Shown here one piece after another: positions 47,668 to 63,249 of a stretch of 64,000 nucleotides of DNA. Within the stretch, counting starts at the first letter, position 1. The number at the start of each line of letters is the position of its first letter. This DNA comes from a virus. The position numbers and the translations under genes are program-made. The stretch lies in IMG/VR virus record IMGVR_UViG_3300005918_000012. The stretch is one strand, 5' to 3'. Under the pieces are notes generated by a model, which saw nothing but the letters and a program-made list of their open reading frames with translations, made no database searches and had not been told where the DNA came from.

Positions 47668-49305
47668 ATGAAAACACTATTAAGATCCACATTCATAGGT
47701 GCTCCGGGTGATAATCCTGATTTATTTCTCCGAAATTACATTAAATTAGATGATTCAGGGTTACATTTTGATCTTCCTGAAGACGTGGTTATTTGGGAGT
47801 TCGTGAAACAATTTGTTCGGGCACATAACCACGCCCCTGATCTGACTACTTTAAAAACTCAGTTTGCTCGAACGAATGAGGATACGGTTACTGAACGTCT
47901 TCGAGTCTTGGAAAATATCAAAGGCTTCTCTCAGGGTGATTTTGATACCCGATTAGGAGCTAAAGTTGAAGAGCGTCGTATCCGTGAAGTCACAGAACTG
48001 ATGAAAGACTCCAGTACTATCTTAACGACAGGGCTGGAGATCAGGAATGGCAAAGAGAAAAGGATACTGAAAGGACCGATGGAAGCGGTTCATTATTTCT
48101 TAGAGAAAAGTCATTCCGTTGTTGCTCCTTCTTCTGGTTCCCGGCTTTCAGGTGAGGTAACGGGAGATGGAGAAGACTTCTCCCGCCGGTATGAGAAAGT
48201 TGAAGCTGACCCTCTGGCTGGAATCGGTCAGCATACTGGACTAACTCAGATAGATGTTGCTACCAATGGGGCCAGAAAGTTTGAGCTGTGGATTCATGCA
48301 GCTTTTACAGGTGGTATGAAATCCACTTGGGTTCTTAATTGGATTTACAATCAGGCTATTTACCATCTCCATTCTAATCTGTTATTCAGTCTGGAGATGC
48401 CTTATATCCAATGCCGTAATATCCTGTGGGCTATCCACAGTAGTCACCCTAAATTCAGGCTTATCAGATATTTCCTTGGCCTTCAATCTAACCCAACAGA
48501 AACAGTCGGGTTGAATTATGAACAAATCCGTGATGGGACGCTGGAGCCGAATGCTAGAAAGTTCCTGTTTGATTATGTCACACCTGATTACAATGGTAAA
48601 CCTGTTGATGTGGATACCTGTCCTCTGACGGGTGATAAATATCACGACCCTCAGACTAAAGAAATTTTGACTTGTACTGTGGATGAGTTTGGCAAACCTC
48701 ATCCTAAGTCAAGTGACTACGGAAAAATATTCATTGAGGTTGCAGACCCGACCAAAATGGACTTCACGATGGACCAGCTCAGGCAGAAGGCCGAGCTTAT
48801 CTATTCTAAAACTCCATTCAGGATGATTGTCATCGATCACGTTAGTTTACTTTCACCTCGTAAATGGGTGGCAAGTCGTACTGACCGAGATAATGAGATC
48901 ATTCGTGATACAAAGAAGTTGGCTATGTCATTCAATCGTGGTGCAGGAATGGCTGTTGTGGCATTGTTCCAGATATCTCGTGAGGGTTACAGGTCGGCTC
49001 TGAAGATCAAGGAGAAAACGGGTACGGCTCGATATGAAGTTACGGCTTTATCTTATGCCAATGAAGCTGAGAGGTCAGCGGATATTGTCACATCCTCGTG
49101 GATTGATGATGATCTGATGGGAGCTAACAGGGTTCAGTTCCAGTGCTTAAAATCTCGTGATCAGAAGCCCTTTGAGATGTTCTTAGCTCGTGTAGAATGG
49201 CCTTGTCGTCGTGTACTGACATGTTTCGATATGCCAATGACGACTAATCAAAATCAAGCTGTTGGAGCTGAAGTTGATGCCGCAGTGAATATTTTAGATT
49301 TATGA
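47668..49305 (+). CDS. dnaB: DnaB-like replicative helicase
   Basis: 'AAFTGGMKST', 'FSLEM', 'IVIDHVSLL', 'LFQISREG', 'SYANEAERSADIV' and 'LKSRD'. Confidence 0.85.
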   Translation: MKTLLRSTFIGAPGDNPDLFLRNYIKLDDSGLHFDLPEDVVIWEFVKQFVRAHNHAPDLTTLKTQFARTNEDTVTERLRVLENIKGFSQGDFDTRLGAKVEERRIREVTELMKDSSTILTTGLEIRNGKEKRILKGPMEAVHYFLEKSHSVVAPSSGSRLSGEVTGDGEDFSRRYEKVEADPLAGIGQHTGLTQIDVATNGARKFELWIHAAFTGGMKSTWVLNWIYNQAIYHLHSNLLFSLEMPYIQCRNILWAIHSSHPKFRLIRYFLGLQSNPTETVGLNYEQIRDGTLEPNARKFLFDYVTPDYNGKPVDVDTCPLTGDKYHDPQTKEILTCTVDEFGKPHPKSSDYGKIFIEVADPTKMDFTMDQLRQKAELIYSKTPFRMIVIDHVSLLSPRKWVASRTDRDNEIIRDTKKLAMSFNRGAGMAVVALFQISREGYRSALKIKEKTGTARYEVTALSYANEAERSADIVTSSWIDDDLMGANRVQFQCLKSRDQKPFEMFLARVEWPCRRVLTCFDMPMTTNQNQAVGAEVDAAVNILDL

Positions 49306-51500
49306 GAGTTATAACTGTTGGTAGAACCCCATTGATTAAGACCACCCCGATGAACTGTGCTATATTGGGTACAGGAGCTTTAAACATCGATGGGTGTAGG
49401 ATTGGGGAAGACCAGCAGAATCCTGGAGGTCGTTGGCCTGCTAATGTTATTTTGAGTCACCCTAAAGAGTGTCGATCTGGGTATTGTATATCAAGTTGTC
49501 CAGTGAAACAACTGGATATTGACAGCCTTGAAGCAGGTATCCATGCTGCGGGTAATAAGAAGAAGGCTTCGACCACGAAAAAAGGTAATACTTTTCACTT
49601 TGAAGCTTTCGATCACAACCCTGACTATTATAATGATTCAGGTGGTGCTTCACGATTTTTTAAATGCTTAAAGGAAGATGAGTTTATGAATATCCCACAA
49701 GAACTTTTAGATTACCTCTTAACGATGATCTCTACTCCTGATATGAAAGCTCTTTACAACGATGACATCAGTACCTGGAAGGTCGGGGAAGAAAAAGATA
49801 ATTCATATCCAGGGCTTGTAGCTTATGGGCAACCGACTGAGGAACAAGCAGCAGATCTGAAAAGAGTTTTAATGCCTGGTGCTCATCTTTTACTGATTGC
49901 CCCAGAGTCAGAACCAACAGGGCATACTGGAACTTGTAGGGTTGAGGATGCAGGCTTTGAAATTCGTGATGCTATCCTATGGATCAGAGAAGCAGGTCAT
50001 TTCCATTATGTTCCCAAAGCTTCACGTTCAGAACGTGAAGCAGGCTGTCAAACAGTTTCTGTAAGTGGTGCTGAGGCTGTAGGGCGTAAAGAGGGGTCTG
50101 ATGGTTTAGATAGTCCACGAGCAGGGGCTATTAAGAACTTCCATCCTTGTTTACACCCTGATACATTAGTGATGACTATAAGAGGTTATCGTCCTATAGG
50201 TGAAATAAAAATTGGAGATCAGGTGTTTAGTGCTGATGGGGGATTTCATATTGTAAAGGATGTTAGCCGTCACCTTTACACTTCTAGTCACCTGTATGAC
50301 ATTGGTGTTCATGGGACTAATTATTCGGCCCCCTCTTCAGATAACCACCCCTATTTAATATGGAGACCTGAACGAAAACGGAATTCCATTGTAGGAGGTT
50401 GTGCTTCTTGGATTGAGGCAAAAGATATTAAAAAAGGGGATTATACCATGACTCCTTTATGTAATTCATTTTCTACTGATGTGATATATCCTGATGATAT
50501 TGAACTTTGGTTTATGTTTGGATTGTATTTAGCTGATGGGGTTCTTCAACAGGCAGGACATGGATCTAACAGATATCCTTCGTATTCATTGGGTCTTGAT
50601 AAACCCCAACTAATTAAAAGAGTACAAAAATATTTTGAAAATACTGGTGTGAATGTTGGGGTTTATCCAAAATCTCGAAGTAAAGCAGTTCAATTAATAG
50701 CTTTTAATCCCAAAATAGGGCAGATGTTTGATTTGTATGGGGGTCAACATGCAGATACTAAAACATTAGCTCCTGACTTACTTGTAGCTAATGTTTCAAT
50801 TAAAAAAGCAATTTTGGATGGGTATTTGGCAGGAGATGGTTGTCAAGTAAAAGGCCGTTTATACAAACAAGCTAAAACGGTTTCTCCTGATCTTGCTTCC
50901 TTGATGGCTTTATTAGGAGATTCTATAGGGTATCGGACTAATTTGTTCAGATATGACCCCTTAATGGGTAAGGGTATTGGAGATCGAAAATTTAAGACTA
51001 CACTACCAACTTACCATTTATATTTTTATAGTCAAAATCAGAAACGGGTTGACCGTAAAAACTCACGTCCTACTTATATCGAGTATCAAGGCCAAACATA
51101 CCTTCTTCGATATGTTAAAGAAATCAAATCTGTTAGTTATACTGGGGTCGTTGTCAATTTGACTGTAGAAGGGTCACCAACTTTTCAAACCGTTGTAGGA
51201 ATGAGCCATAATACGGTTAAGCCTATTAAGTTGATGGAATGTTTATTGGATGGTATTCCTGTGGATAATGGTCCAGTAATGGACCCGTTTATGGGCAGCG
51301 GCTCAACTGGGATTGCGTGTCTCCATACTGGCCATGATTTTATTGGGACTGATAGAGAAAAAGATTATGTTGGTATTGCTACTTCCCGAATTCGTCACTG
51401 GGATAGTGAACAGGGGTATATAAATAGAGAAGTGGTTTCAGATTTCAAATCCGAAACCGAAGAAAAAGAACCTGTGGATTTGTGGGATATGGAAGATTAA
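49302..51500 (+). CDS. Permuted beta-class DNA amino-methyltransferase subunit: ARKP module + degenerate catalytic half + intein + SAM-binding half
   Basis: MRVITVGRTP...GTGALNIDGCRI...GRWPANVI...SRFFK; LKRVLMPGAHLL...VEDAGFEIRD; KASRSER; NFHP|intein|TVKP; VMDPFMGSGSTG. No DPPY motif. Confidence 0.85.
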   Translation: MRVITVGRTPLIKTTPMNCAILGTGALNIDGCRIGEDQQNPGGRWPANVILSHPKECRSGYCISSCPVKQLDIDSLEAGIHAAGNKKKASTTKKGNTFHFEAFDHNPDYYNDSGGASRFFKCLKEDEFMNIPQELLDYLLTMISTPDMKALYNDDISTWKVGEEKDNSYPGLVAYGQPTEEQAADLKRVLMPGAHLLLIAPESEPTGHTGTCRVEDAGFEIRDAILWIREAGHFHYVPKASRSEREAGCQTVSVSGAEAVGRKEGSDGLDSPRAGAIKNFHPCLHPDTLVMTIRGYRPIGEIKIGDQVFSADGGFHIVKDVSRHLYTSSHLYDIGVHGTNYSAPSSDNHPYLIWRPERKRNSIVGGCASWIEAKDIKKGDYTMTPLCNSFSTDVIYPDDIELWFMFGLYLADGVLQQAGHGSNRYPSYSLGLDKPQLIKRVQKYFENTGVNVGVYPKSRSKAVQLIAFNPKIGQMFDLYGGQHADTKTLAPDLLVANVSIKKAILDGYLAGDGCQVKGRLYKQAKTVSPDLASLMALLGDSIGYRTNLFRYDPLMGKGIGDRKFKTTLPTYHLYFYSQNQKRVDRKNSRPTYIEYQGQTYLLRYVKEIKSVSYTGVVVNLTVEGSPTFQTVVGMSHNTVKPIKLMECLLDGIPVDNGPVMDPFMGSGSTGIACLHTGHDFIGTDREKDYVGIATSRIRHWDSEQGYINREVVSDFKSETEEKEPVDLWDMED
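50148..51212 (+). mobile_element. Intein with LAGLIDADG endonuclease (355 aa) in the HP|TVKP motif
   Basis: Starts CLHPDT, ends MSHN, +1 residue is Thr. Contains 'FGLYLADG' and 'LDGYLAGDG'. Confidence 0.92.
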
Positions 51501-51529
51501 GCTTAGTTTTCCCTGTCCGTGGGTTGTTG
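51500..51529 (+). promoter_or_regulatory. Putative early-promoter motif (copy D)
   Basis: AGCTTAGTTTTCcctgtccGTGGGTTGTTG, followed by AGGAGG and ATG 51545. Confidence 0.7.
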
Positions 51530-51544
51530 ATGTAGGAGGATAAC

Positions 51545-52030
51545 ATGACAAAAAAATTAACTCAAGCAGAAACTGATTATAACACTGAAATCATGATTCA
51601 TCGGACGGATGTTTTTGAACAAATGCAGATTGTATCTGATGAGATAGAACATCGTCAGGCTACTCATGATCTATCCAAGAGTAGTGATGAGGAATTCTCA
51701 ACATACGCCGAGGTTATTCCTAAAGTCAAAGGGCTACCATTTGGATCACCAGAGGCCAGAACGATCATAAAAGAACTGGGTCCTGCTCTTAAACACCATT
51801 ATGAAAACAACAGACATCATCCTGAGCATTTCAAGGACGGAGTTGCAGGGATGCATTTGATTGATATAATTGAGATGGTCTGTGATTGGGTGGCTGTATC
51901 TGGAGCCAAAGGCACTGATGTCAGAAAAGGAATGATAGAAGTTCTGTTTCCCAAGCACGGGATCGAAGAACCTCTGGCCACAATCCTTTTAAACACTGTG
52001 GATTTCTTGGAAAAAGGTGACAACGAATGA
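51545..52030 (+). CDS. HD-superfamily protein (DUF5662-like)
   Basis: 'HDLSK...HHYENNRHHPEHF...MHLIDIIEMVCDW'. Confidence 0.8.
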   Translation: MTKKLTQAETDYNTEIMIHRTDVFEQMQIVSDEIEHRQATHDLSKSSDEEFSTYAEVIPKVKGLPFGSPEARTIIKELGPALKHHYENNRHHPEHFKDGVAGMHLIDIIEMVCDWVAVSGAKGTDVRKGMIEVLFPKHGIEEPLATILLNTVDFLEKGDNE

Positions 52031-52269
52031 AAAATAGCATTACAGTACAAATAACAGATGGCATTATTGAAATTGGCATCAACAAGAATGTGGCCATCGA
52101 TACAACATCTTTGATAAGGATGCAAACCCAAGAAGGTTGGGAGACAGGACTTAGCAGGGTTATATCAAGACTCCTTGACCCATTAGCCTCGGAGGTTCAG
52201 AAAGAATTGGAACAAACACTCCATCAAACAATTATTTATGATGGTTTTAATTATAAGGTAAATGAATGA
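52027..52269 (+). CDS. Hypothetical protein
   Basis: 80 aa, ATGA coupling at both ends. Confidence 0.6.
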   Translation: MKNSITVQITDGIIEIGINKNVAIDTTSLIRMQTQEGWETGLSRVISRLLDPLASEVQKELEQTLHQTIIYDGFNYKVNE

Positions 52270-52463
52270 CCCACTATTATCTATGTGCCTTCTGTGGGCA
52301 AAAATGGACTGAGGATGAGGCAGCATTGTTACCTCAGAGTGACAGTACCGCATCGATGCCTATATGTTGTGGTTATCCTATTTTTCAACAAACTTGGGAA
52401 GGTGAAGAACTATCCGATTGGATATCAGAAGCCGTGGCCGAAGCCGTGGGAGAAAAGGATTGA
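52266..52463 (+). CDS. Small zinc-ribbon-like protein
   Basis: CAFCG...ICCG. Confidence 0.55.
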   Translation: MTHYYLCAFCGQKWTEDEAALLPQSDSTASMPICCGYPIFQQTWEGEELSDWISEAVAEAVGEKD

Positions 52464-52466
52464 TAA

Positions 52467-52763
52467 ATGTCTAAACTTTTAACCACTGATAAAGAGAGAA
52501 AAGATTTATCTTTTCTGGACTGGAGTTCTGAATCTATTGGTAATGCTGTTAAAGATTCTGCTGTTAAAATATGCCAGTATAACAAAGCTCCTTACGATGC
52601 ATCAGGTAAAGATCTAATTCGTCTGAAAGCTGCTATGCTCGTAGTCCTTAATATTATGGAAAAGTCAAATGCTGAGACATTTACCCAAGAGATGCTTGAT
52701 GTAACAATCAAAGAGGTAAATATCGGAGATTACCAGATGAAGGTAACTAAGGTGAAAAGATGA
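52467..52763 (+). CDS. Hypothetical protein
   Basis: 98 aa, AAGGA RBS. Confidence 0.65.
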   Translation: MSKLLTTDKERKDLSFLDWSSESIGNAVKDSAVKICQYNKAPYDASGKDLIRLKAAMLVVLNIMEKSNAETFTQEMLDVTIKEVNIGDYQMKVTKVKR

Positions 52764-52791
52764 AACAGAACCCAGTTCCACAAACACTCCA
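52760..52791 (+). repeat. Remnant original 5' end of the methyltransferase gene, duplicated at 53600-53649
   Basis: atgaaacagaacccagttccacaaacactccatt (MKQNPVPQTL) versus atgaaaaggaaacagaacccccgtagggtggttccacaaacacttcaatt (MKRKQNPRRVVPQTL). Confidence 0.8.
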
Positions 52792-53535
52792 TTATGTTGG
52801 GGGCTTGTATGTACGAACATCTTCTATTTCCTTTTTCATCTGTCCCATACGAACCCACACACTTTTCCCTGGTTTAAAGGATGTCCACAAATGAACAGCC
52901 TTTTTCCAAATACGGAAATCATTAGCTTTCTTAGCCCTAATAGGGTATTGGTCGATAATACTAACCAAGGTAGGACAGTCGGCTTTAGTATCTACTATCC
53001 AAACCATACAAGGCTTACTATTCCCATTTCTCGATCTGTCAGGTTTCAATCTACCAAGTTGGAGTTTATTGACAATCTCAGTCAAAATAGGGGTGTCATC
53101 ATCTCGAAGTTTCAACGAGAAGGCACAACCGAAATATGCACCTTTTCGAACTTTGTGGATTCGAAAACACCCTTCTCCGGCAATGAAACCTGCCAACCAA
53201 TGTCCGAAACCATTAGTCAAGACAGGAGTAGGAGTTGGTGGGGGTGGTTGATAGGGGCCGCAGATAGGACGTGGAGACAGACCTTGTGTACGTGCTTTAT
53301 AATGGCATTCTTTGGAACACAAAGGAAGTCCTGCATCAGCTTTTTTAGCTGTCGAGGGAGGGCGTTCAAAAACAGTTCCACAGATAACACAGGTGTAAGA
53401 TTTAGATTTTTTAAGTTGTTGGGCTCGGAATTTATACGAGCATTTACGGGAGCATGTGGTTTGTCTTCCGTGTTTAAGACGTTTAGGATCAGCTTGATAG
53501 GTTTTTTTACATATCGGGCATGTTCTAGTTTGCAT
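52792..53535 (-). mobile_element. Free-standing single-motif LAGLIDADG homing endonuclease with two N-terminal Cys4 zinc-finger repeats
   Basis: 'WLAGFIAGEGCF'; CPICK..CSRKC and CVICG..CSKEC; AGGAGG RBS. Antisense to the surrounding operon. Confidence 0.85.
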
Positions 53536-53553
53536 TATTAAACCTCCTGTGAT

Positions 53554-53583
53554 ACTGTATCATGGACTAGGTTTTATTGTCAA
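53554..53583 (-). promoter_or_regulatory. Sigma70-like promoter of the homing endonuclease
   Basis: Minus strand reads TTGACA-N18-TACAGT with an extended TG, just upstream of AGGAGG. Confidence 0.6.
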
Positions 53584-53599
53584 GAGATAGGATGAAATA

Positions 53600-54481
53600 A
53601 TGAAAAGGAAACAGAACCCCCGTAGGGTGGTTCCACAAACACTTCAATTGCTCATGGGAGATTGCAAAGAAAAAATGCAATCTTTTGCTGAAGGCAGTAT
53701 TGGAAGTATTGTTTGTGATCCGCCCTATGGCTAACTTAGCTTATCCTTTATGAACAAGAAATGGGATAACCTTGATGAATGGAAGTCAGGGGCAGGGATG
53801 AGTAAACCTGGTATTGGCCAACGTGAGATTGAATGGCCTTCTTTAGGAGGAACTCAACCTTTCGGTGGAGCCAATCCAACATGTAAAGCCTGTGGTGGCC
53901 GTCTAAGAGGGGCTAAGAAATGTACCTGTGACGAACCAGAATGGGTTGTGGCTGGTGAACCTGTAGGAGACGGTGCAGACGCAGCCTTAAACATCTCCTT
54001 GGACAATATACACACTCAACAGGCTTGGCATCTGAATTGGTTGGTGGAAGCCTTCAGGGTATTGAAACCTGGAGGTGTCCTAAAAGCTTTCGGTGGCACC
54101 CGCACTTACCACCGGTTGGCAGCAGCTATGGAACAGGCAGGCTTTGTAGAAATTCATATGGATGCCTGGATATACGGATCTGGATTTCCGAAGTCATTAA
54201 ACATATCAAAGGCTTTGGATAAGAAAATTGGAGTTGAACCACAAGTAATAGGAACTACAACAGGTAAAGGTGGGGATAATGTCAACAATCAATCCCGACC
54301 AGGCAAAGGTGATAGTCTTTCTGCCAAAGGGTGTGGAGCTTATGGGGCAGGGGTAAAACAAGTCAATATTCAAATACCACTGACCTTACCTACTTCGGAT
54401 ATTGCCAAGAAGTTTGAAGGCTATGGGACGGCACTCAAGCCCGCTTGGGAAATAATAGTGGTAGGGAGGAAACCAGAATGA
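53600..54481 (+). CDS. Catalytic (DPPY) half of a beta-class DNA amino-methyltransferase, interrupted by an in-frame TAA at 53732-53734
   Basis: LLMGDCKEKM...SIVCDPPYG[TAA CTT AGC]LSFMNKKWD...FRVLKPGG...GGTRTYHRL...WIYGSGFPKSLNISKALDK...GYGTALKPAWEIIVVGRKPE*. No FxGxG motif. The 44-codon 5' part is missing from the ORF track. Confidence 0.85.
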
Positions 54482-54726
54482 ACAAAGTGTTTGAAGAAAA
54501 CGGAGAATGGTTTTTCAGATGTGGTCCTTTCCTAACGGAAAATGTTGCAACTAATCGTCTGGCGGAGCATACTGTAGAAACAGAGCCAGAGACTCAAAGA
54601 ATAGTTACTCCTGAAAAAGTTTGTCGGGAGTGTGCTTATAAAAAATCATCGAAAATCTGGGAAGCTCTTATTTGTAGAGGTACTTGTGATAGTTGTGGGA
54701 AAGTAAATATACCTTTATGGGGGTAA
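54478..54726 (+). CDS. Small protein with WFF/GPF motif and C-terminal CxxC pairs
   Basis: ATGA coupling to the upstream gene, GGGAGG RBS. Confidence 0.6.
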   Translation: MNKVFEENGEWFFRCGPFLTENVATNRLAEHTVETEPETQRIVTPEKVCRECAYKKSSKIWEALICRGTCDSCGKVNIPLWG

Positions 54727-54731
54727 CAGTA

Positions 54732-55190
54732 ATGGATCCTATAATTGAAAAAGATGGCCAATGGTTTTTTTCCGATGAGAATTGGTCGGATATTATTGGA
54801 CCTTTTAATACCGAGGAAATAGCCAGACATCAGTTGGCAGAATATGTCAAATATCTGAATGAGGGTTCTGAGCTGATATGCAAAACGATGGCAGAGTGGA
54901 TTAACAAATTGGCTGATGCTCACGATGCTGGGAAGAAAGTTACGTTAAACGATAACCCTCTGGACCGCTTGTTAGGGTTCAAAGTAGGTGGGACAACTAT
55001 TTCAGTTTCTTTGGTTTTAGCCCAAGGACGAGGATGGAATACCACAGAAGGTCTTAAAGCTCTAAAACGTATTGATTTTGACGACTATTCTTTTGGACAC
55101 TCTCTTCAGAGTCCTGGTAGAAGAGAAGCTCTTGTTACGAAATTATATCACGTAAAAAGGAAATATTGCAGGGGAGGAGACAGGAAATGA
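54732..55190 (+). CDS. Hypothetical protein sharing an N-terminal WFF/GPF motif with the upstream gene
   Basis: 'EKDGQWFF...GPFNTEEIARHQLAEY' versus 'EENGEWFF..GPFLTENVATNRLAEH'. Confidence 0.6.
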   Translation: MDPIIEKDGQWFFSDENWSDIIGPFNTEEIARHQLAEYVKYLNEGSELICKTMAEWINKLADAHDAGKKVTLNDNPLDRLLGFKVGGTTISVSLVLAQGRGWNTTEGLKALKRIDFDDYSFGHSLQSPGRREALVTKLYHVKRKYCRGGDRK

Positions 55191-56023
55191 AAAGACTTGT
55201 AACAATGGGACATTGGACGACGTTCAACCGTATGTTGACCATCAAAGATGAAATCGTCGGTCACCCAAAATACCCTGGAGAATCTGAGGAGAAACTTTTG
55301 GCTTTGATGCCGTGGGCAAAAGACCGAGCAAATGACCCCATCTCAATCTCTACGGCTATGAGACCGCTCCTGTCTTTGGGTGTTGATAAAGTTTTCCTGC
55401 TCCTGAAAGTAAATATGCAACCTTACCAGTACCAAGAAGGACTAGAGTACGGCTTTCGGGTCATGAAACATGGTGCCCCTGATTATATTTCAGCACAGGA
55501 ATTTCTTCAAAAAGCATCTAATGCTTTTAAGGACACGGGTGAAGAAAACCCTAAACTCACTCCTTTCAATGTTGTTTCCAGTTGTTACACCACAATACAA
55601 GCCCGAATGAAACAGCAAGGGAAAGAAGATCAGTGGGTTGATGAGAAGGACTGGCAGTTCCAAGAGTTCCTAAACGTGTTTGGGTTGTTTCCTGCCAATG
55701 ATGCAACGATGGCACGAATTGATGGTTGGACAGGGAAACCTTTCCGAGGTCCTTTGACACGAGAACTTATGGTTGATGCTTTTGCAGCCATTGGTACAGA
55801 TAGTGTTTCTACTCTTCTTGTTTCTGAGAAAACTCGTGGGACTCTCTTTCACGGCTTGGTTGTTAAATCTGAGGACGATGACCAGTATATTGACCTTGGT
55901 GGAAACTCCCTTTGGGGTGCTCATATTGAAACTGCTGATATCCCTGATAATAAGATATATTTTATCGGTGCAGATAAGGACAACCGTGTGCAGAGAGTAG
56001 ATATTCAACAGAAGGAGAGTTAA
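55187..56023 (+). CDS. Hypothetical protein
   Basis: ORF track gives 55166..56023. ATG 55187 follows GGAGGAG and overlaps the upstream stop. Confidence 0.65.
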   Translation: MKRLVTMGHWTTFNRMLTIKDEIVGHPKYPGESEEKLLALMPWAKDRANDPISISTAMRPLLSLGVDKVFLLLKVNMQPYQYQEGLEYGFRVMKHGAPDYISAQEFLQKASNAFKDTGEENPKLTPFNVVSSCYTTIQARMKQQGKEDQWVDEKDWQFQEFLNVFGLFPANDATMARIDGWTGKPFRGPLTRELMVDAFAAIGTDSVSTLLVSEKTRGTLFHGLVVKSEDDDQYIDLGGNSLWGAHIETADIPDNKIYFIGADKDNRVQRVDIQQKES

Positions 56024-56025
56024 AG

Positions 56026-56394
56026 ATGGCAGAGAAACAATGCCCGTTTTGTAATGAACTTAGATTTGAAAAAACACAGGGTCTTGCAGCTTGTTTATTT
56101 GATGGATATCCTGTGAATAAAGGCCATAGGCTGATTGTTCCCATTCGACATGTTGAGGAGTTTTCGGATATCACAAGTGATGAGATGAGGGATATTTTAG
56201 AGCTGGCTCAGTTGGAAATAAAAAATCTTGTAAACGTAGATGGGGTAAATGTTGGATGGAATTTGGGATATGCTGCTGGACAGACTGTACCTCATATTCA
56301 TTTACACGTCATCCCAAGGTTTTTAGGTGATGTCCCTGACCCTGTGGGTGGTATTCGGGGAGTTATCCCTGAAAAAAGGGTTTATGAAAAATGA
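56026..56394 (+). CDS. HIT-family nucleotide hydrolase
   Basis: CPFC, 'YPVNKGHRLIVP' and 'AGQTVPHIHLHVIPR'. Confidence 0.92.
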   Translation: MAEKQCPFCNELRFEKTQGLAACLFDGYPVNKGHRLIVPIRHVEEFSDITSDEMRDILELAQLEIKNLVNVDGVNVGWNLGYAAGQTVPHIHLHVIPRFLGDVPDPVGGIRGVIPEKRVYEK

Positions 56395-57389
56395 ACCCAG
56401 AGAATGCTTTAGAAGAGTGGCAAATGAAAACCCGGTCTGGTTACCCATTGGATCTTAAAATTCAAATGAGTCTTAGCCGGATTAGAAGTTGGTACGAACA
56501 CCACCAAGGTAAAGTATCAGTGTCGTATTCAGGAGGTAAAGATTCCTCCGTCCTACTTCATCTGGTTCGTCAGTTGTATCCTAACACTCCGGCAGTATTT
56601 TGTGACACAGGATTAGAATACCCTGAAATCAGGAGGTTTGCCAGAGAAACAGAGAATGTAATTGTCCTCAAACCTAAGATGAACTTTCAAGAAGTTGTTA
56701 AGAAGTATGGATGGCCAGCTGTATCTAAACGGAATGCTCAGTATATCCATGAGGCTGGGTGTGGTTCTATTGGTTCGGCTACCCACACCCTCCGCTTAAC
56801 AGGAATGACAAGCAAGGGTGAGTATTTATCCTTGGGCAAAATACCTAACAAGTGGTTGTATTTAGTAGATGAGGTTCGAGCTGGAAACCTGAAGATAAAT
56901 CACCGTTGCTGTCATGTTATGAAGAAAGCACCTTTACATAAGCATATTAAGGAAACGGGACAGTATCCTTATGTCGGAGTCACAGCAACAGAGAGTAAAG
57001 ACCGAGAACTATCTTGGAAAAGGTTTGGGTGTAATGCTTATAATATGAAGAACCCGATGTCTCGGCCATTAATGGCTTGGACAGAGCAAGATATATTGCA
57101 ATACCTTCTGGATAATAAGTTAAAGATGTCCAGTGTCTATGGTAATATAGTTAAAGATGATACAGGGAAGCTTTCATTGACCGGAGTATCCCGGACAGGT
57201 TGCATGTTTTGTATGTTTGGTGCTCATATGGAGAAATACCCAAACAGGTTTGAGAAAATGAAAAAGACTCACCCAAAACAATGGGCTTTCATCACTCAAA
57301 AGATGGGTGGTGGTAAAGTCTTAGACTTGTTAAAAGTTCCGTGGGGAGACCCAGAGGATTTAAGTGTTTTTGAAATAATTGATTCATAG
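56391..57389 (+). CDS. PAPS-reductase-family (PP-loop) protein
   Basis: 'SYSGGKDS', 'DTGLEYPE', 'CCHVMKK' and 'RTGCMFC'. Confidence 0.9.
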   Translation: MNPENALEEWQMKTRSGYPLDLKIQMSLSRIRSWYEHHQGKVSVSYSGGKDSSVLLHLVRQLYPNTPAVFCDTGLEYPEIRRFARETENVIVLKPKMNFQEVVKKYGWPAVSKRNAQYIHEAGCGSIGSATHTLRLTGMTSKGEYLSLGKIPNKWLYLVDEVRAGNLKINHRCCHVMKKAPLHKHIKETGQYPYVGVTATESKDRELSWKRFGCNAYNMKNPMSRPLMAWTEQDILQYLLDNKLKMSSVYGNIVKDDTGKLSLTGVSRTGCMFCMFGAHMEKYPNRFEKMKKTHPKQWAFITQKMGGGKVLDLLKVPWGDPEDLSVFEIIDS

Positions 57390-57873
57390 GTAAAAGAATG
57401 ATAGTTATTACCGTAGCCCGAAAACCTATTTCAGGTTCTGTGGTGGGAAACATAGTCCAATGGGGTACTTGTGGACTCAATATTGATGCCTGCCGTATCG
57501 GATATGAAGACACCCCTAACGTAGCATCAAATCCATTGTTTCGAACACAACAAGGATATTCATTCAAGCATGGTTCAGACCGTGGGGCAGCTTTCCAAAT
57601 TCAGAAAAAAGACGGTGACATCAAGATTAACCCTGCTGGCCGTTGGCCTTCTAATGTGATTTTGGGTCAAAATGCTGTAGCAGCAATGGATAAACAGTCT
57701 TCAGTTACAAAGAACATAGTCCGACACATGAGTTACCAACGGTCAGGTGGAGAATTCATTGATGGGATACCTTCTCAACCTGAGAAAGGCTGGCATGTGA
57801 CTGAACCTAACAAACCTTCCAGATTCTTCAAGCAGGTAAAAGAATGATAGTTATTACCGTAGCCCGAAAACCT
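57388..57873 (+). repeat. Perfect 40-bp direct repeat at module junctions (57388-57427 / 57834-57873), with a near-copy at about 62615-62660
   Basis: aggtaaaagaatgatagttattaccgtagcccgaaaacct. Confidence 0.92.
57398..57847 (+). CDS. Stand-alone ARKP module (middle, TRD-position region of a phage beta-class MTase)
   Basis: MIVITVARKP...GTCGLNIDACRI...GRWPSNVI...SRFFKQVKE. Confidence 0.8.
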   Translation: MIVITVARKPISGSVVGNIVQWGTCGLNIDACRIGYEDTPNVASNPLFRTQQGYSFKHGSDRGAAFQIQKKDGDIKINPAGRWPSNVILGQNAVAAMDKQSSVTKNIVRHMSYQRSGGEFIDGIPSQPEKGWHVTEPNKPSRFFKQVKE

Positions 57874-60624
57874 TTCCCGAAGACACTGGTGAGCAACATC
57901 CAGAAGAACGGGACAGGCTGCATCAACATTGATGCTTGCCGAATAACCCCAACAGGGGAATGGTTGGGTGGTGGGGACGAACGGCCTGAAACTATTGACA
58001 AGAAACAGAGTCATTGGAGTCAGCCGTGGATGCATCGTTCTGAAGATGCCAAACGTCATGCTGAAATGATGAAGGAAGATATCAAACGACATTCATTGAT
58101 GGGTAGATTCCCTGCCAATATTATTTTGGAACATAACCCTGACTGTGTCTCTTTAGGTCTGGCCAAGATCAAAGGTTTTCCGCAAGTCAATGTTGATAAA
58201 CTCCCTGTAGAAGAACGTATCCAATCTGGAGAACAACATGGCCACATCTGGGGTCGTGGTGTAGGGATTGGTGTGAAGGGTGTCAGCTATACCGTTGGGT
58301 TCGGTGACGAATCAGGTCAGGAATCCGTTGAATCTTGGGAGTGTGTGGGTGATTGTCCTGTACGGCAGATTGACGTACAGAGTGGCAACTCTTTATCTTC
58401 TGGTGGCCGAACTGCTAATATCTCTACTACTTCTAAAATCTATGGTGGTGGGAAAGGTTTGGGGCAGGATCTTTTAGCTGATGATGTGAAAGGAGACCCG
58501 GGCTACGGTGATTTAGGCGGGGCTTCCCGATATTTCAAACAGATAAAACAGGAGTCTAAATTGGAAAAAGGAATTAATGTATTATCTTTATTTGACGGGA
58601 TGAGCTGCGGGCAAATAGCTCTTAACCGACTGGGCATTAAATATGATAAATACTTTGCCAGTGAGATTGATAAACATTCTATGGCCGTTACTATGCATAA
58701 CTATCCCGACACAATTCAACTGGGTGATGTCACACAGGTATTTGCTAAAGACTTGCCTCAGATTGATCTCTTGATAGGTGGTTCTCCATGTTTTGTGGCT
58801 GGTACAAAAATCATTTGTGAAAAGGGTATTCGGTCAATTGAAGACATTTGTGTTGGTAATAAGGTGTTAACTCATAAAGGTCGTTACAAGAAAATTATAA
58901 GAATAGGTAATGATAGTAAGCCATTATGCACTTTATTAAGTCAAGGGGCCACTGAAACTACAACTACAGCCAATCACCCCTATTATGTCAGAACACGAAA
59001 AAAATTATGGAATAACAATAAAAGAACTTATGAATGGGTTTTTAGTGATCCTGAATGGGTAGAGGTTTGTGATATAAAAATTGGTGATTATATTGGGACA
59101 CCGATCTTGAGAACTGAAAAAAACCCTTTAAACTTGTCTTCTGATGAATGTTATTTATTAGGGCTTTATATAGGAGATGGACATACGAGAAAAGACTACA
59201 GGACCTCAGAAAACCGACCTAATGATAGACATTGGCAGTTAATTATATCGGTAGGGAAACACGAAAAGGTTTCATTTAAGAAGAATATAAAACTAAAACA
59301 TTCTTTTTACGAACATACCAAAAGTGTTTACAGGGCTGTTTTTTCCAGTAAACACCTAGTGAAAATAGCGGAGAAACATTGTGGGGTAGGGGCTAAAAAC
59401 AAATATCTGTCTAAAATGCTGTTGGATTTACCAAAACCTTTATTAGAGAAAGTTCTGGAGGGTTATCTTTTTGCAGATGGTAGTTGTAGAAGAGAAACCT
59501 ATAGGACCACAACAATTTCCAAGAGTCTGGTAGAAACTTTAGCATTAGCAGTAGCAAAAGTATATAGGACAACTTGTTCTATCGAGTATACAGTTAGACC
59601 TGCAAAGACCATCATTGAAGGACGTGTTGTAAACCAACAAAACACATATACAATAACTTACAGGAAATACCATACAAAACAATCTCGTGCTTGGGTCATT
59701 GAGGATGTAGTATGGAATCCAGTGAAGAAAATAAAAAATATAGGGGTAGTAGATACCGTTTATAACCTTGAGGTGGGTAAAGATAACTCCTATGTGGCTA
59801 ATAACCATATAGTACATAATTGTCAGGGGTTCAGTTTTGCTGGGAAGCAGTTGAATTTCAAAGACCCTCGGAGTATGTTGTTCTTTGAGTTCGTTCGATT
59901 GCTCCGAGAATGCAAACCTAAATACTTCTTGTTAGAGAACGTCAAGATGAAACGAGAGTATGAGTATGCTATCACTGAGCTGTTAGGTGTAAGCTGTGCT
60001 CGAATCAATTCCAACCTTGTATCAGCTCAGAATCGTTCCCGTTTATACTGGACAAATATTCCAGGTGAAGGTGATTACGTTATTGGGAGTTTTATTGATC
60101 AGCCCGAAGACAAAGGAATCCTTCTTCAAGATATTTTGGAAGATAACCAGTTAAAAGAACCAGTGGTCTTGAGACCTGCTCGAAGTGAAGAAGGGAAAAG
60201 GATACGGAAAGAACATCAAGCTACACACGGTACTGATTATACTCCGTTCCAAGCTAAAGTCCAACTCCCTAGGACTGATGGGAAAGCAAATTGCCTTACC
60301 ACTTCTCTCTTAGACAATAAGATCATTGACAAAGCATTATGGAGAAAGACAGAGGAATTCCCATATAAAGCAGACACTCCTTCCAGCCCGGAAGGGAAAG
60401 CTAAATGTTTGAGAGCCGAAGCTGGGGGGAAGACTAGAGGGATTGGGGTTTTCAATGAAGATAAAACTCAGTATCGGCTATTAACCCCGGAAGAATGTGA
60501 AGCTTTACAAACCGTCCCACGAGGATATACGTCCCCAGCTTCAAGATCACAAAGATGCCGGATGCTTGGAAACGGTTGGACTATAGATGTTATTACACAT
60601 ATAATGAAAGGTATGGAGCTATGA
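57844..60624 (+). CDS. ARKP module fused to an intein-containing C5-cytosine DNA methyltransferase
   Basis: Residues 1-~235 are an ARKP module. Then 'VLSLFDGMSCG', 'SEID', 'GGSP|intein|CQGFS', 'LLENV', 'QNRSRLYW', 'RLLTPEECEALQ' and 'LGNGW'. A possible internal TTG start at 58561 has AGGAG upstream. Confidence 0.9.
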   Translation: MIVITVARKPFPKTLVSNIQKNGTGCINIDACRITPTGEWLGGGDERPETIDKKQSHWSQPWMHRSEDAKRHAEMMKEDIKRHSLMGRFPANIILEHNPDCVSLGLAKIKGFPQVNVDKLPVEERIQSGEQHGHIWGRGVGIGVKGVSYTVGFGDESGQESVESWECVGDCPVRQIDVQSGNSLSSGGRTANISTTSKIYGGGKGLGQDLLADDVKGDPGYGDLGGASRYFKQIKQESKLEKGINVLSLFDGMSCGQIALNRLGIKYDKYFASEIDKHSMAVTMHNYPDTIQLGDVTQVFAKDLPQIDLLIGGSPCFVAGTKIICEKGIRSIEDICVGNKVLTHKGRYKKIIRIGNDSKPLCTLLSQGATETTTTANHPYYVRTRKKLWNNNKRTYEWVFSDPEWVEVCDIKIGDYIGTPILRTEKNPLNLSSDECYLLGLYIGDGHTRKDYRTSENRPNDRHWQLIISVGKHEKVSFKKNIKLKHSFYEHTKSVYRAVFSSKHLVKIAEKHCGVGAKNKYLSKMLLDLPKPLLEKVLEGYLFADGSCRRETYRTTTISKSLVETLALAVAKVYRTTCSIEYTVRPAKTIIEGRVVNQQNTYTITYRKYHTKQSRAWVIEDVVWNPVKKIKNIGVVDTVYNLEVGKDNSYVANNHIVHNCQGFSFAGKQLNFKDPRSMLFFEFVRLLRECKPKYFLLENVKMKREYEYAITELLGVSCARINSNLVSAQNRSRLYWTNIPGEGDYVIGSFIDQPEDKGILLQDILEDNQLKEPVVLRPARSEEGKRIRKEHQATHGTDYTPFQAKVQLPRTDGKANCLTTSLLDNKIIDKALWRKTEEFPYKADTPSSPEGKAKCLRAEAGGKTRGIGVFNEDKTQYRLLTPEECEALQTVPRGYTSPASRSQRCRMLGNGWTIDVITHIMKGMEL
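58789..59820 (+). mobile_element. Intein with LAGLIDADG endonuclease (344 aa) at the catalytic P|C of the C5 MTase
   Basis: Starts CFVAGT, ends IVHN, +1 residue is Cys. Contains 'LGLYIGDG' and 'LEGYLFADG'. Confidence 0.93.
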
Positions 60625-60899
60625 AAAAAACTTTGAAACAATATTTAGAAGATTGGCAGTCTCTGGAGAGTGCTGCTTTTTACATTATGGTGGTGATGGG
60701 TTTGGCTACGGACGACACCCCTGAGAGGTATCAAAAATTCCGACATCTTATAGAAACTAATAATCCTCTAAGTGAGCTGGTTTACCCAATCCTTAACCAG
60801 ATGATTGAGATTGGGATTCTGGACGAAGACACTGAACATGAGAATGGGGAACGAGTCAGATGGACGAAGACACTAGACATGAGAAAGGAGAACGATTAA
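60621..60899 (+). CDS. Hypothetical protein
   Basis: ATG 60621 overlaps the MTase stop. ORF track gives 60555..60899. Confidence 0.6.
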   Translation: MKKTLKQYLEDWQSLESAAFYIMVVMGLATDDTPERYQKFRHLIETNNPLSELVYPILNQMIEIGILDEDTEHENGERVRWTKTLDMRKEND

Positions 60900-61675
60900 T
60901 GACTGACGGAATCAAACTTGACGGTTATATGCCAGAACCTATGAAAGACGGACAATGGAGTTTTGAGGCTGCCTTAAAAGGCCGATTAGAAGATGGTACG
61001 GAAGATGTAAATCTCCGTGAGTTCTCTAGTCCTGTGCAGAACCAACGCTGGACAAGTTCTTGTGTTGCTCATGCTGTGGTCAAGGCTCTGGAATTAAAAC
61101 GGATCAAAGAATATGGTCGTGATGCCCATGTGGATTTATCCATTCTGGCCGTCTATTATCTGGCCAGAGAACTCCAGCTCCCTCAGACAACGGGTTTAGA
61201 TGCTGGCACTTATATCTCATTAGCTTGTGATGTCCTCAGACGTTGGGGAGTCTGCCCTGAGAAAGATTGGCCTTTCAACACCCTGAGAGTCAACCAGACT
61301 CCATCGTGGATGGCTATGAGGAAAGCTTATCAGCACAAGATAGCTGCTTTTTATCGAATCAAATCCTCTGGGGACAACCGAGTAGAGAGTATCATTCAAG
61401 CTTTGAACAACGGAAACCCGGTCGTATTCGGGACAGCCGTTGGTAAAAACTGGAATCAATACAAGCTTGGAGAAGTATTATCCAAGCCTGATGCTATCAC
61501 AGGCCGTCATGCAACCTGCTTGGTCGGGTATGAAAACGGTAAGTTCATTGGTGAGAATAGCTGGGGTAGCCATTGGGGTGATGACGGTTTCTACTTAATG
61601 GATGAAGATTACATCAAATGGGGTGAGACCGCCGACATCTGGGTACTTACAGCTCCTTGGGAGGAAGTGAAATGA
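60899..61675 (+). CDS. Papain-like (C1) cysteine peptidase
   Basis: 'NQRWTSSCVAHA' (Q, C), 'GRHATCLVGY' (H) and 'ENSWG..WGDDGF' (N). AAGGAG RBS. Confidence 0.9.
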   Translation: MTDGIKLDGYMPEPMKDGQWSFEAALKGRLEDGTEDVNLREFSSPVQNQRWTSSCVAHAVVKALELKRIKEYGRDAHVDLSILAVYYLARELQLPQTTGLDAGTYISLACDVLRRWGVCPEKDWPFNTLRVNQTPSWMAMRKAYQHKIAAFYRIKSSGDNRVESIIQALNNGNPVVFGTAVGKNWNQYKLGEVLSKPDAITGRHATCLVGYENGKFIGENSWGSHWGDDGFYLMDEDYIKWGETADIWVLTAPWEEVK

Positions 61676-61950
61676 GAAAACTATTTATTTTGATAATGGT
61701 CGTTATGTTGTCAGGAGTATCTTGCAAGACTATGCCGCCGATACCCATCGAACCGCCCGGTACTTCATCGTGTCAGAATGCTTGTGACAGATTGAAAATG
61801 CTTAGTTGTCCCGAAGGAGAAGATCTCCCAGACGGAACAACCTGTACGGTTTTCTGTATAGAGACTCAGGAAAAAGGGCATTCTTTAAATCCTCAGTGCT
61901 TGAAAGCTATAGATACCTGTGAGGAAATCTACACTAAGTGTGGCCAATGA
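61672..61950 (+). CDS. Small Cys-rich lipoprotein
   Basis: Signal peptide ending GVSC, with 8 further Cys. ATGA-coupled to the peptidase. Confidence 0.7.
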   Translation: MRKLFILIMVVMLSGVSCKTMPPIPIEPPGTSSCQNACDRLKMLSCPEGEDLPDGTTCTVFCIETQEKGHSLNPQCLKAIDTCEEIYTKCGQ

Positions 61951-62195
61951 TTAACTGGAAAAAGATAAGTGATAATGAATACAAGGTAAGCCTTGATACT
62001 GAATCCTGGGAACTGTACAGGATCAGTCGGGGGGATAATTGGTGGCTTGGTACAAAGTACTCTGAGGTTTCCATGCAGTTAAAGGTAAAAAAAACAAAAT
62101 CAGCCCTTACTGTAGCTGAACAGGAGATTATTAAGTATTACAAGAATAAGATCGTACAATCACAAAAAGTATTGGATGAAATAATCACATCATGA
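61947..62195 (+). CDS. Hypothetical protein
   Basis: ATGA coupling on both sides. Confidence 0.6.
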   Translation: MINWKKISDNEYKVSLDTESWELYRISRGDNWWLGTKYSEVSMQLKVKKTKSALTVAEQEIIKYYKNKIVQSQKVLDEIITS

Positions 62196-62638
62196 TTGTT
62201 ATCACTGTAGCAAGAAAACCTATCACAGGGACTGTAGTAGATAACATCCAACAATGGGGTACGGGTGGACTCAACATTGGTGAATGTCGTATTGCAAGTA
62301 ACCCCGGTGAATATGATATCAGACATTATACAAATGAGGATTGCTTTACATCTGTGGGTAAAGAAAAGAAAAGTAAATTTCAGGTGAAACCACAACCCTC
62401 TGGCCGATTCCCTGCTAACGTCATTTTTGAACATAATCCTGAATGTGTTGATAACTGTCCTGTACGGCAACTTGACGTACAAAGTGGTATTTTAACAAGT
62501 GGTGGGAAAGCAGGAAAACAATATCTTTGGAAAAAAAACCACGGTGCAGTTACACTCGGGCGAACAAATGCCGTAACGAGTCCTGTTTATGCGGATTCAG
62601 GAGGAGCTTCTCGTTTCTTCAAGCAGGTTAAAGAATGA
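62192..62638 (+). CDS. Stand-alone ARKP module
   Basis: MIVITVARKP...GTGGLNIGECRI...GRFPANVI..HNPEC..CPV...GGASRFFKQVKE. Confidence 0.8.
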   Translation: MIVITVARKPITGTVVDNIQQWGTGGLNIGECRIASNPGEYDIRHYTNEDCFTSVGKEKKSKFQVKPQPSGRFPANVIFEHNPECVDNCPVRQLDVQSGILTSGGKAGKQYLWKKNHGAVTLGRTNAVTSPVYADSGGASRFFKQVKE

Positions 62639-63249
62639 TAGTTATAACAGTAGCCAGAAAGCCCTTAAAAGGGGCTGTGGTGGACAATATAGTCCAATGG
62701 GGTACTGGTGGGCTTAATCTTGATGCAAGTCGTGTAAGAGGGCCATTAGGTCCAGGTGTTTGGGGAACCAGCAATGCTACTGTTCGAGATGATCGGATGT
62801 TCAACAGCTCCCCTGAGATGCGGGAGTGGAAGTCTCAACCTCATGATGCTGGTCGATTCCCTACCAACGTCATTCTGGAACATAAGCCCGGGTGTCAGAG
62901 TACAGGCTCTCAGAAAATGAAACCTAAAGAAGGTTATCGTCCGAACCCTGTTAATGTTCAGTCAGACGGAGCTATACAATTCAGTCAGAAACCTCCAGGT
63001 TATCAAAAAATTAGTTATACTGACGATAATGGTTTGGAGACCATGGAAACATGGGAGTGTGTGGATGGATGCCCTGTCCGTTATCTGAATGAGACAGTCG
63101 GTATAACTAAAACAGGTACAATGAAAAAGTGGTTTGACCCGGGAGAAAAAGGTAGAGTCTATGGAACACCCCAAGGTCGTTATAAGCAAAGTGTCGGCAA
63201 TGAGGGCTATGTTTCTCGGTTTTTTAAGCAATTTCGGGTAAAGAAGTGA
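62635..63249 (+). CDS. Stand-alone ARKP module
   Basis: MIVITVARKP...GTGGLNLDASRV...GRFPTNVI..HKPGC...WECVDGCPV...SRFFKQ. Confidence 0.8.
   Translation: MIVITVARKPLKGAVVDNIVQWGTGGLNLDASRVRGPLGPGVWGTSNATVRDDRMFNSSPEMREWKSQPHDAGRFPTNVILEHKPGCQSTGSQKMKPKEGYRPNPVNVQSDGAIQFSQKPPGYQKISYTDDNGLETMETWECVDGCPVRYLNETVGITKTGTMKKWFDPGEKGRVYGTPQGRYKQSVGNEGYVSRFFKQFRVKK

What the first reader, a model, noticed from the sequence alone, without database searches (positions are those of the whole stretch)
49302..63249. Disassembled, modular beta-class DNA methyltransferase with a library of five TRD-position cassettes
Seen: all parts of a common phage beta-class (N6_N4_Mtase) enzyme are present, but on different genes. 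53600-54481 carries the catalytic half (DPPY to LKPAWEIIVVGRKP) and stops exactly where the middle region normally begins. Five ORFs begin with that same strand (MIVITVARKP at 57398, 57844, 62192 and 62635; MRVITVGRTP at 49302). They share GT-x-x-(L/I)N-x3-(C/S)R, GR(W/F)P.N(V/I)I and SR(F/Y)FK but have unrelated sequence between these blocks. Only 49302-51500 has HPTVKP and DPFMGSGS. Established: beta-class order is catalytic motifs, then TRD, then SAM-binding motifs. Beta-class enzymes such as CcrM and EcoP15I Mod act as dimers with divided labour, and Bacillus phage SPR/phi3T C5 MTases gain multispecificity from several TRDs in one chain. Inference: this phage may build a multi-subunit methyltransferase whose specificity comes from interchangeable, separately encoded modules, giving combinatorial anti-restriction methylation. 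I do not recognise this architecture as described.
Basis: partly seen in the sequence, partly recalled or inferred. Interest (0 to 1): 0.92.

Follow-up and report, generated by a model that had tools for sequence, protein, structure and literature searches.

The report
Three-part phage methyltransferase with swappable readers
A salt-lake jumbo phage encodes a DNA-methylating enzyme as three kinds of separate parts (a catalytic half, a cofactor-carrying scaffold and five alternative, probably DNA-reading, plug-ins); dozens of uncultured phages share the layout, which may let one enzyme mark many DNA sequences, but no activity has been tested.

Summary
Largely confirmed; the architecture needs correcting. 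A 402-kb salt-lake phage encodes a beta-class amino-methyltransferase as three kinds of part. C (53600-54481) is the DPPY half. S (49302-51500) is a DPPY-less copy of the catalytic half joined to the SAM-binding half. Five middle modules (M) follow: three free, one fused to S, one fused to a C5 methyltransferase. The same breakpoints recur in 28 distinct S chains from uncultured phages, with up to 8 free modules per locus. All parts testable against an orthologue show dN/dS near 0.1, and module loops are reshuffled between sibling phages. A complex model (0.92 vs control 0.49; stand-in C and S) places the module's first strand into S's dead half-fold, as a swappable recognition protomer would sit. 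Nineteen other genes have similar gaps, resembling the T4 gene 60 bypass, but this copy lacks the matched landing codon and helix. Activity and specificity are untested. I found no paper describing the system; this scan noted it, and the gap, earlier on other DNA.

The parts
49302..49685 (+). Module M1 (beta-7 strand + TRD-position loops), fused to the scaffold chain S
   Evidence: orthologue fused in L019, L087, L389; dN/dS 0.115
49686..50147 (+). Scaffold S: degenerate catalytic half without DPPY and without beta-7; predicted docking site of modules
   Evidence: (HHalign to C, E 4.8e-5); dN/dS 0.099
50148..51212 (+). Intein with LAGLIDADG-like region splitting HP|TVKP
   Evidence: absent in L019
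51213..51500 (+). Scaffold S: SAM-binding half (motifs X, I, II; DPFMGSGS)
52760..52791 (+). Stub of the original 5' end of the C gene, left upstream of the endonuclease cassette
   Evidence: matches the start of the intact C gene in sibling L389
52792..53535 (-). Free-standing LAGLIDADG homing endonuclease; promoter-like site at 53583-53554
   Evidence: PF00961 E 1.4e-14; also beside gap-bearing C in L087 and L390, absent beside intact C in L019 and L389
53600..53731 (+). Catalytic chain C, 5' piece (44 aa, ends DPPYG)
53732..53740 (+). 9-nt insert beginning with TAA; candidate coding gap
53741..54481 (+). Catalytic chain C, 3' piece (Met at 53750; ends at the beta-7 strand, RKPE)
   Evidence: dN/dS 0.09-0.11
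57398..57847 (+). Free module M2 (149 aa, no Cys cluster)
   Evidence: dN/dS 0.096 vs L087; first loop matches a different L087 module; missing in L389 and skipped in contigs of runs X4/X5
57844..58548 (+). Module M3, fused to a C5 methyltransferase
   Evidence: fusion conserved in L019, L080, L087, L389; dN/dS 0.117
58549..60624 (+). C5 cytosine methyltransferase with an intein at 58789-59820
   Evidence: PF00145 E 3.2e-37
62192..62638 (+). Free module M4 (148 aa)
62635..63249 (+). Free module M5 (204 aa)

Best explanation
The beta-class methyltransferase homodimer has been rebuilt as a C + S + M hetero-trimer. In beta-class dimers one protomer reads DNA and the other methylates. Here the active protomer is C (DPPY half) completed by the SAM-binding half of S. 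The reading protomer is the dead half-fold of S completed by whichever module inserts its first strand as the missing beta-7. Each module brings up to three variable loops at the TRD position, so one catalytic core can serve several specificities, and loops are reshuffled between modules by recombination at the conserved blocks. The likely purpose is to protect a 400-kb genome from several host restriction systems. SHOWN: gene layout, conservation, purifying selection, loss of DPPY in S, loop mosaicism. MODELLED: module-into-S strand insertion. INFERRED: C-S pairing and assembly (about 0.8), modules set specificity (about 0.7), anti-restriction role (about 0.6). In this phage C must cross a 9-nt stop-bearing gap: ribosome bypass about 0.4, re-initiation at 53750 giving two complementing pieces about 0.25, read-through about 0.05, inactive about 0.3.
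For: The same three-way breakpoints occur in many contigs. There are 28 distinct S chains at 90% identity, none with DPPY. Free modules number 0-8 per locus; complete genomes of 436 and 536 kb have several modules and one C gene each. Single-chain relatives carry 2-3 tandem modules, each with its own beta-7 strand. dN/dS is 0.09-0.12 for C, S, M1, M2 and M3, against 0.08 for DnaB. The fused relative L171 folds as beta class (pLDDT 79.5; Z 26.7, rmsd 2.6, 234 aligned to M.BceJIV; Z 26.2 to CcrM), with the module starting at core strand 132-139. In the S model the SAM half (261-389) aligns to beta-class enzymes on its own, not as one fold with the dead half. Complex model: 0.92 vs best control 0.49; the mark was reached by 58 of 80 solved and 2 of 110 mismatched pairs; runs agree in at least 91% of contacts; partner pLDDT 64; module residues 4-9 pair with S 66-72 and 93-98. 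Loop mosaics: 41 of 62 modules with a close first-loop match do not share the last loop with that match, and window/L389 swaps are visible directly. Division of labour in beta-class dimers: PMC7544214. Phage multi-TRD enzymes as anti-restriction devices: PMC12707154.
Against: No activity, methylome, RNA or protein data. The complex used C and S from relative L019 and my own alignments; pieces of a split gene can pass by likeness to solved folds, and the C-S contact was not scored. The variable loops are low-confidence in the models and not enriched in basic residues (R+K 0.10-0.13, D+E 0.12-0.14), so DNA reading is assigned by position only. The window's C has a stop, with neither a matched landing codon nor the upstream helix (z -0.12). 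Only 64 kb of the 402-kb contig could be searched for a second C.
Confidence: 0.7

Rival explanations
1. The complex forms, but modules are not specificity readers: the enzyme is broad or non-specific (EcoGII-like) or acts on another substrate, and modules tune assembly, timing or partner recruitment (for example tethering the C5 enzyme through M3).
For: Loops are glycine-rich, unstructured in models and not basic. One module is fused to a C5 methyltransferase that has its own variable region. C chains also carry variable inserts, and some phages have up to five C genes, so specificity may lie partly in C.
Against: The loops sit at the beta-class TRD position, and such TRDs are disordered without DNA (PMC7544214). 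Specific loop sequences are conserved across distant phages and reshuffled as units, as target-recognition segments are.
Confidence: 0.14
2. Free modules are a silent DNA library that recombines into an expressed position (the module slot of S, or the end of C), as in domain movement or invertible hsdS loci; diversity is made at DNA level rather than by subunit exchange.
For: Conserved DNA blocks flank the variable loops. Loop mosaics occur between siblings. Contigs in the same runs show other module layouts.
Against: Modules are whole ORFs with start codons, several with stop-start overlaps, under protein-level purifying selection. Many phages have an S with no fused module at all (L011, L023, L042, L072), so a free module is needed there. 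Paralogue repeats are only 60-80% identical, and no recombinase was seen nearby.
Confidence: 0.12
3. Debris of decaying methyltransferase genes broken by mobile elements.
For: A stop in C, two inteins and a homing endonuclease lie in the cluster.
Against: The same breakpoints recur in 28 distinct lineages, dN/dS is about 0.1, split-type C chains form a 100/99 clade, and S has a specialised, conserved dead half. Decay could still be true of this phage's C gene alone.
Confidence: 0.04

Closest known systems
Beta-class N6-adenine/N4-cytosine DNA methyltransferases (CcrM, M.BceJIV, M.RsrI, M1.MboII, EcoP15I Mod; Pfam PF01555), including the single-chain phage enzymes with this middle segment (PHROG 67/3008; about 400 phage records, mostly mycobacteriophages)
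   Same: Motifs, fold, order IV-TRD-I when the parts are summed, and division of labour between protomers (PMC7544214).
   Different: Known members are single chains forming homodimers. Here no chain holds both DPPY and motif I, the partner half has lost DPPY and beta-7, and the TRD-position segment is a separate, multi-copy gene. No cultured phage record covers 80% of S.
Multispecific C5 methyltransferases of Bacillus phages (SPR, phi3T type)
   Same: Several recognition modules serve one catalytic core, as an anti-restriction device (PMC12707154). Single-chain relatives here with 2-3 tandem modules are the direct parallel.
   Different: Those are C5 enzymes with TRDs in one polypeptide; this is an amino-methyltransferase with modules on separate genes.
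Type I HsdM/HsdS and H. pylori domain movement (PMC3077401, PMC3983042; abstracts seen)
   Same: Specificity on a separate, exchangeable subunit; variable segments shuffled between conserved flanks.
   Different: No HsdS or HsdR homology seen; the module completes the Rossmann sheet itself; phage orphan system.
METTL3-METTL14 and MTA1-MTA9 heterodimers
   Same: An active beta-class subunit paired with a catalytically dead one (PMC7544214; fold hits Z about 15).
   Different: There the active chain has its own SAM site; here the dead chain carries the SAM half and needs a third chain.
Naturally two-chain C5 enzymes M.AquI and M.EcoHK31I (named in PMC3404938; details from my own knowledge)
   Same: A methyltransferase made from complementing polypeptides.
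   Different: C5 class, two fixed chains, no alternative modules.
T4 gene 60 bypass beside a homing endonuclease; phage Hau3 terminase gaps (PMC5009743; PMC10732093 abstract)
   Same: Gly codon followed by a stop, a short insert, and an adjacent homing endonuclease.
   Different: Gaps are 7-17 nt, not 50. The window's copy lacks a matched landing codon and a 5' helix. Untested.

Membership tests
Beta-class amino-MTase | Motif IV (D/N/S)PP(Y/F/W) | tested here: met
   DPPY at 53717, but followed by a stop in this copy
Beta-class amino-MTase | Motif I FxGxG with motifs X and II | tested here: met
   DPFMGSGS at 51282; PF01555 E 4.5e-15
Beta-class amino-MTase | Order IV-TRD-I within one polypeptide | tested here: not met
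   No chain in the window has both motifs; met only by fused relatives
Beta-class amino-MTase | Seven-stranded class-beta fold | tested here: met
   Fused relative L171 model: Z 26.7, rmsd 2.6, 234 aligned to M.BceJIV; shown for the relative, not for the assembled trimer
Beta-class amino-MTase | Dimer with division of labour | tested here: inconclusive
   Model supports module docking on S and touching C; C-S pairing not scored
Beta-class amino-MTase | SAM-dependent methylation of A or C in DNA | not testable with these tools
   No assay or methylome
Bacillus-phage multispecific C5 MTases | C5 catalytic PC motif in the multispecific core | tested here: not met
   The C/S/M core is a DPPY enzyme; the C5 enzyme at 58549 is a separate fusion partner
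Bacillus-phage multispecific C5 MTases | Several TRDs arrayed in one chain | tested here: not met
   Modules are on separate genes here; tandem arrays occur only in relatives such as L033
Type I R-M (HsdM/HsdS) | Specificity on a separate subunit | tested here: inconclusive
   Layout fits; specificity not shown
Type I R-M (HsdM/HsdS) | HsdS homology and an HsdR partner | tested here: inconclusive
   No Pfam or PDB hit for modules; modules instead match the middle of beta-class enzymes; no HsdR seen in the scanned genes
T4 gene 60-type translational bypass | Take-off codon directly followed by a stop | tested here: met
   GGC TAA at 53729-53734; Gly+stop in 18 of 20 gap genes
T4 gene 60-type translational bypass | Matched landing codon before the resume codon | tested here: not met
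   AGC in the window. Exact match in 9 and another Gly codon in 6 of the 18 Gly+stop genes, which may simply be the recipient's original Gly codon
T4 gene 60-type translational bypass | 5' mRNA stem-loop | tested here: not met
   Window z -0.12; present in 11 of 20 gap genes vs 3 of 40 intact C and 12 of 140 fused genes (rows are related, not independent)
T4 gene 60-type translational bypass | Adjacent homing endonuclease cassette | tested here: met
   LAGLIDADG between the old and new 5' ends of C; absent with the insert in L389 and L019
T4 gene 60-type translational bypass | Joined protein product | not testable with these tools
   Needs mass spectrometry or a reporter

The most novel reading that the evidence does not exclude
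Jumbo phages have turned a beta-class methyltransferase into a programmable chassis: one catalytic core, plug-in reader subunits that dock by completing a beta-sheet, reader loops shuffled by recombination, alternative catalytic chains adding a second combinatorial layer, and output of the catalytic chain limited by a short ribosomal hop carried on a homing-endonuclease cassette.
Probability: 0.4. Interest if true: 0.92.

Novelty: new variant of a known kind. Interest (0 to 1): 0.8.

Why it matters
If right, this is a naturally three-part, retargetable DNA amino-methyltransferase in which specificity is a small exchangeable subunit. That would give a direct test of how beta-class enzymes divide reading from catalysis, a natural library of more than 100 recognition loops that can be mapped to motifs, and a candidate route by which very large phages cope with many restriction systems. 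Annotation misses it: modules have no Pfam hit and gap-bearing catalytic genes are called as truncated. The recurring 7-17-nt gaps would also add natural cases of translational bypassing, of which few are known.

Tried and rejected
Assembly or sequencing error for the TAA: rejected. Alternative genetic code: rejected; neighbouring genes end normally in TAA, TAG and TGA. Group I/II intron or known RNA at the gap: no credible Rfam match, and no removal rule restores the frame with a terminal G across the inserts (by inspection). The insert as a repeated mini-element: only one other 1-mismatch match in the window. Strong structure around the window's stop: none. A general link between gap and nuclease: only the window, L087 and L390 had a LAGLIDADG upstream; other upstream ORFs had none, so the link is shown only for the close clade. 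No whole genome is held and the 402-kb record could not be searched. No RNA holder listed. The module profile found no solved structure by sequence. M4 and M5 have no clean orthologue in L087, so their dN/dS rows are not orthologue values. The tree uses 99 columns, a third of the fused genes, and drops several split C genes and L389, so a single origin of the split is suggested, not shown. Eight paper searches found no description of this system; most subscription papers are not in the library. Host not identified; the only DnaB match is an uncultured 485-kb phage that has two fused enzymes near DnaB.

Full report
SETTING. The window is part of a 402-kb contig held by salt-lake metagenomes. 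It has long structural-type genes in its first 37 kb and helicase, DnaB, primase-like and polymerase genes around the finding, which I read as a jumbo phage. The host is unknown. The only DnaB match among phage records is an uncultured 485-kb phage at 50% identity.

1. OBSERVATION. The five ORFs and their shared blocks are real and confined to 49.3-63.2 kb. Three points were missed. (a) The catalytic gene has an in-frame TAA directly after DPPYG, within a 9-nt insert; contigs from four other runs carry it with no differences. (b) The 49302 product is module + degenerate catalytic half + intein + SAM half. (c) The 57844 module is fused to a complete C5 methyltransferase. So there are three free modules and two fused ones.

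2. CONSERVATION. Searches with a module and with catalytic halves gave ordinary single-chain enzymes (134 complete ORFs in the census, not de-duplicated) and a recurring split form. C chains end at the RKP strand. Modules begin with the same strand and end at SRFFK. S chains have the SAM half preceded by a catalytic-like half with no DPPY. There are 28 distinct S chains at 90% identity. Free modules number 0-8 per locus, some phages have several C genes (five in L011), and in many S has no fused module. Complete genomes of 436 and 536 kb have one C gene with several modules. Some single-chain relatives hold two or three tandem modules, each with its own RKP strand, so the module is a natural repeat unit. 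Split-type C chains form a 100/99 clade in a rough tree. No cultured phage record covers S.

3. SELECTION AND SHUFFLING. Against L019 and L087, dN/dS is 0.09-0.11 for C, 0.10 for the dead half of S, 0.115 for M1, 0.096 for M2 and 0.117 for M3, with DnaB at 0.08 (dS is high, so values are rough). Each module has up to three variable loops. M2's first loop matches one L087 module and its last loop another. Sibling L389 combines M4's first loop with M5's second loop, and gives M5's first and last loops a different middle. Overall, 41 of 62 modules with a close first-loop match do not share the last loop with that match. L389 lacks M2, and contigs of two runs skip the same stretch.

4. STRUCTURE. 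A fused relative folds as a beta-class enzyme (pLDDT 79.5; Z 26.7 to M.BceJIV, 26.2 to CcrM); the module starts with the last core strand and its loops are low-confidence. In the model of L019's S chain (pLDDT 66) the SAM half aligns to beta-class enzymes by itself rather than as one fold with the dead half. A three-chain model (L019 C, L019 S without its module, window module M4, SAM) scored 0.92 against a best control of 0.49. That mark was reached by 58 of 80 solved and 2 of 110 mismatched pairs; runs agree in at least 91% of contacts; partner pLDDT is 64. The best contacts put module residues 4-9 between S residues 66-72 and 93-98, the place of the strand S lacks, and the module also touches C residues 174-196 and 211-228. 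I had expected this placement from the sequence. Limits: stand-in chains, my own alignments, split-gene pieces can pass by likeness to solved folds, and C-S was not scored.

5. MECHANISM. [quoted passage not shown] The parts map onto this: C plus the SAM half of S give the active protomer (inferred); the dead half of S plus a module give the reading protomer (modelled). Exchanging modules would change the target (inferred, about 0.7). Anti-restriction is the likeliest purpose, by analogy with multi-TRD Bacillus phage enzymes (PMC12707154) and because siblings also pile up C5 enzymes (three in L389). The conserved M3-C5 fusion may tether the cytosine enzyme to the complex; this is unexplained. 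Overall confidence 0.7.

6. THE GAP IN C. Many homologues are called as starting just after DPPY. Their DNA shows 20 distinct genes with 7-17-nt inserts there. Eighteen have a Gly codon followed by a stop, and 17 have a Gly codon just before the resume point. Four were found by a pattern requiring Gly+stop, and one lies in a fused enzyme. A helix covering the DPPY codons occurs in 11 of 20, against 3 of 40 intact C and 12 of 140 fused genes; an earlier scan note prompted this test. In the window the original 5' end of C survives as a stub at 52760, followed by a reversed LAGLIDADG gene and a new 5' piece. Sibling L389 has neither nuclease nor insert. This parallels T4 gene 60 and its homing endonuclease (PMC5009743). 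For function: the window, L080 and L087 gap genes form a 99/89 clade under purifying selection, and a complete genome has only a gap-bearing C. Against, in this copy: the landing triplet is AGC, there is no helix, and the downstream Gly seen elsewhere may just be the recipient's own codon. I put bypass at 0.4, re-initiation 0.25, read-through 0.05 and an inactive gene 0.3. The modular system does not depend on this, since intact C genes occur in the same layout (L012, L019, L023, L389).

7. COMPARISON AND NOVELTY. It works like a beta-class dimer, and in logic like Type I HsdS and the multispecific C5 enzymes, but it fails the single-chain order test of the first and the class tests of the others. 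Eight literature searches found no description; coverage of subscription journals is poor. This scan reported the same kind of split enzyme and the gap on other DNA; those notes are not independent support.

8. VERDICT. A real, selected and widespread feature; new variant of a known kind; interest 0.8. Function awaits the co-expression test.

Noticed in passing
window 53732-53740 and 19 other genes (L005, L032, L044, L048, L080, L087-L091, L107, L108, L110, L111, L113, L234, L390-L392): Short stop-bearing or frameshifting inserts right after DPPY(G), often with a covering RNA helix; candidate translational bypass sites.
   Followed up: yes
window 52760-53731: Homing-endonuclease cassette (reversed LAGLIDADG plus a spare 5' end of C) inserted into the C gene, leaving the old 5' stub upstream.
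   Followed up: yes
window 57844-60624; L019, L080, L087, L389: Conserved fusion of a module to a C5 methyltransferase; its variable region has two similar short units (60283, 60397), hinting at two targets. L389 has three C5 genes in tandem.
   Followed up: partly
window 53867-53935 (within C): Cys-rich insert (CxxC...CxC) after the DPPY loop of C, variable between C paralogues in L011; may be a second specificity layer.
   Followed up: no
modules M1, M3, M4, M5: Conserved His/Cys cluster (H..C ... C..CP) suggests a zinc site framing the second loop; absent in M2.
   Followed up: no
window 56026-57389: HIT-family gene and PAPS-reductase-like gene lie just before M2; absent with M2 in L389 and skipped in contigs of runs X4 and X5. 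PAPS-reductase-like proteins occur in DNA-modification pathways (own knowledge).
   Followed up: partly
L057:16111-20229: ORF of more than 1370 aa with three repeated DPPY/DPF methyltransferase units.
   Followed up: no
L043:4200-6946: Another permutation: module, then DPPY half with a probable intein, followed by an overlapping module+SAM ORF without a dead half.
   Followed up: no
L005, L032, L048, L073, L110: C genes of 400-630 aa, apparently with inteins; some carry both a gap and an intein.
   Followed up: no
window 60860-61675: Papain-family cysteine peptidase (PF00112) conserved next to the methyltransferase cluster in L087, L389 and L390.
   Followed up: no
window 60820-60895: 35-nt direct repeat (89% identity) at the junction before the peptidase gene.
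   Followed up: no
window 55166-56023: 285-aa gene with no PHROG hit; its orthologue in L389 is 94% identical in DNA, above the surrounding 77-86%, and is fused to the upstream gene there.
   Followed up: no
L089:6163-6759: An MT-A70 family gene lies directly upstream of a split system with four C genes.
   Followed up: no
L394 (LR745208.1): The 485-kb phage with the closest DnaB has two fused, single-chain enzymes of this family beside DnaB rather than the split form.
   Followed up: partly
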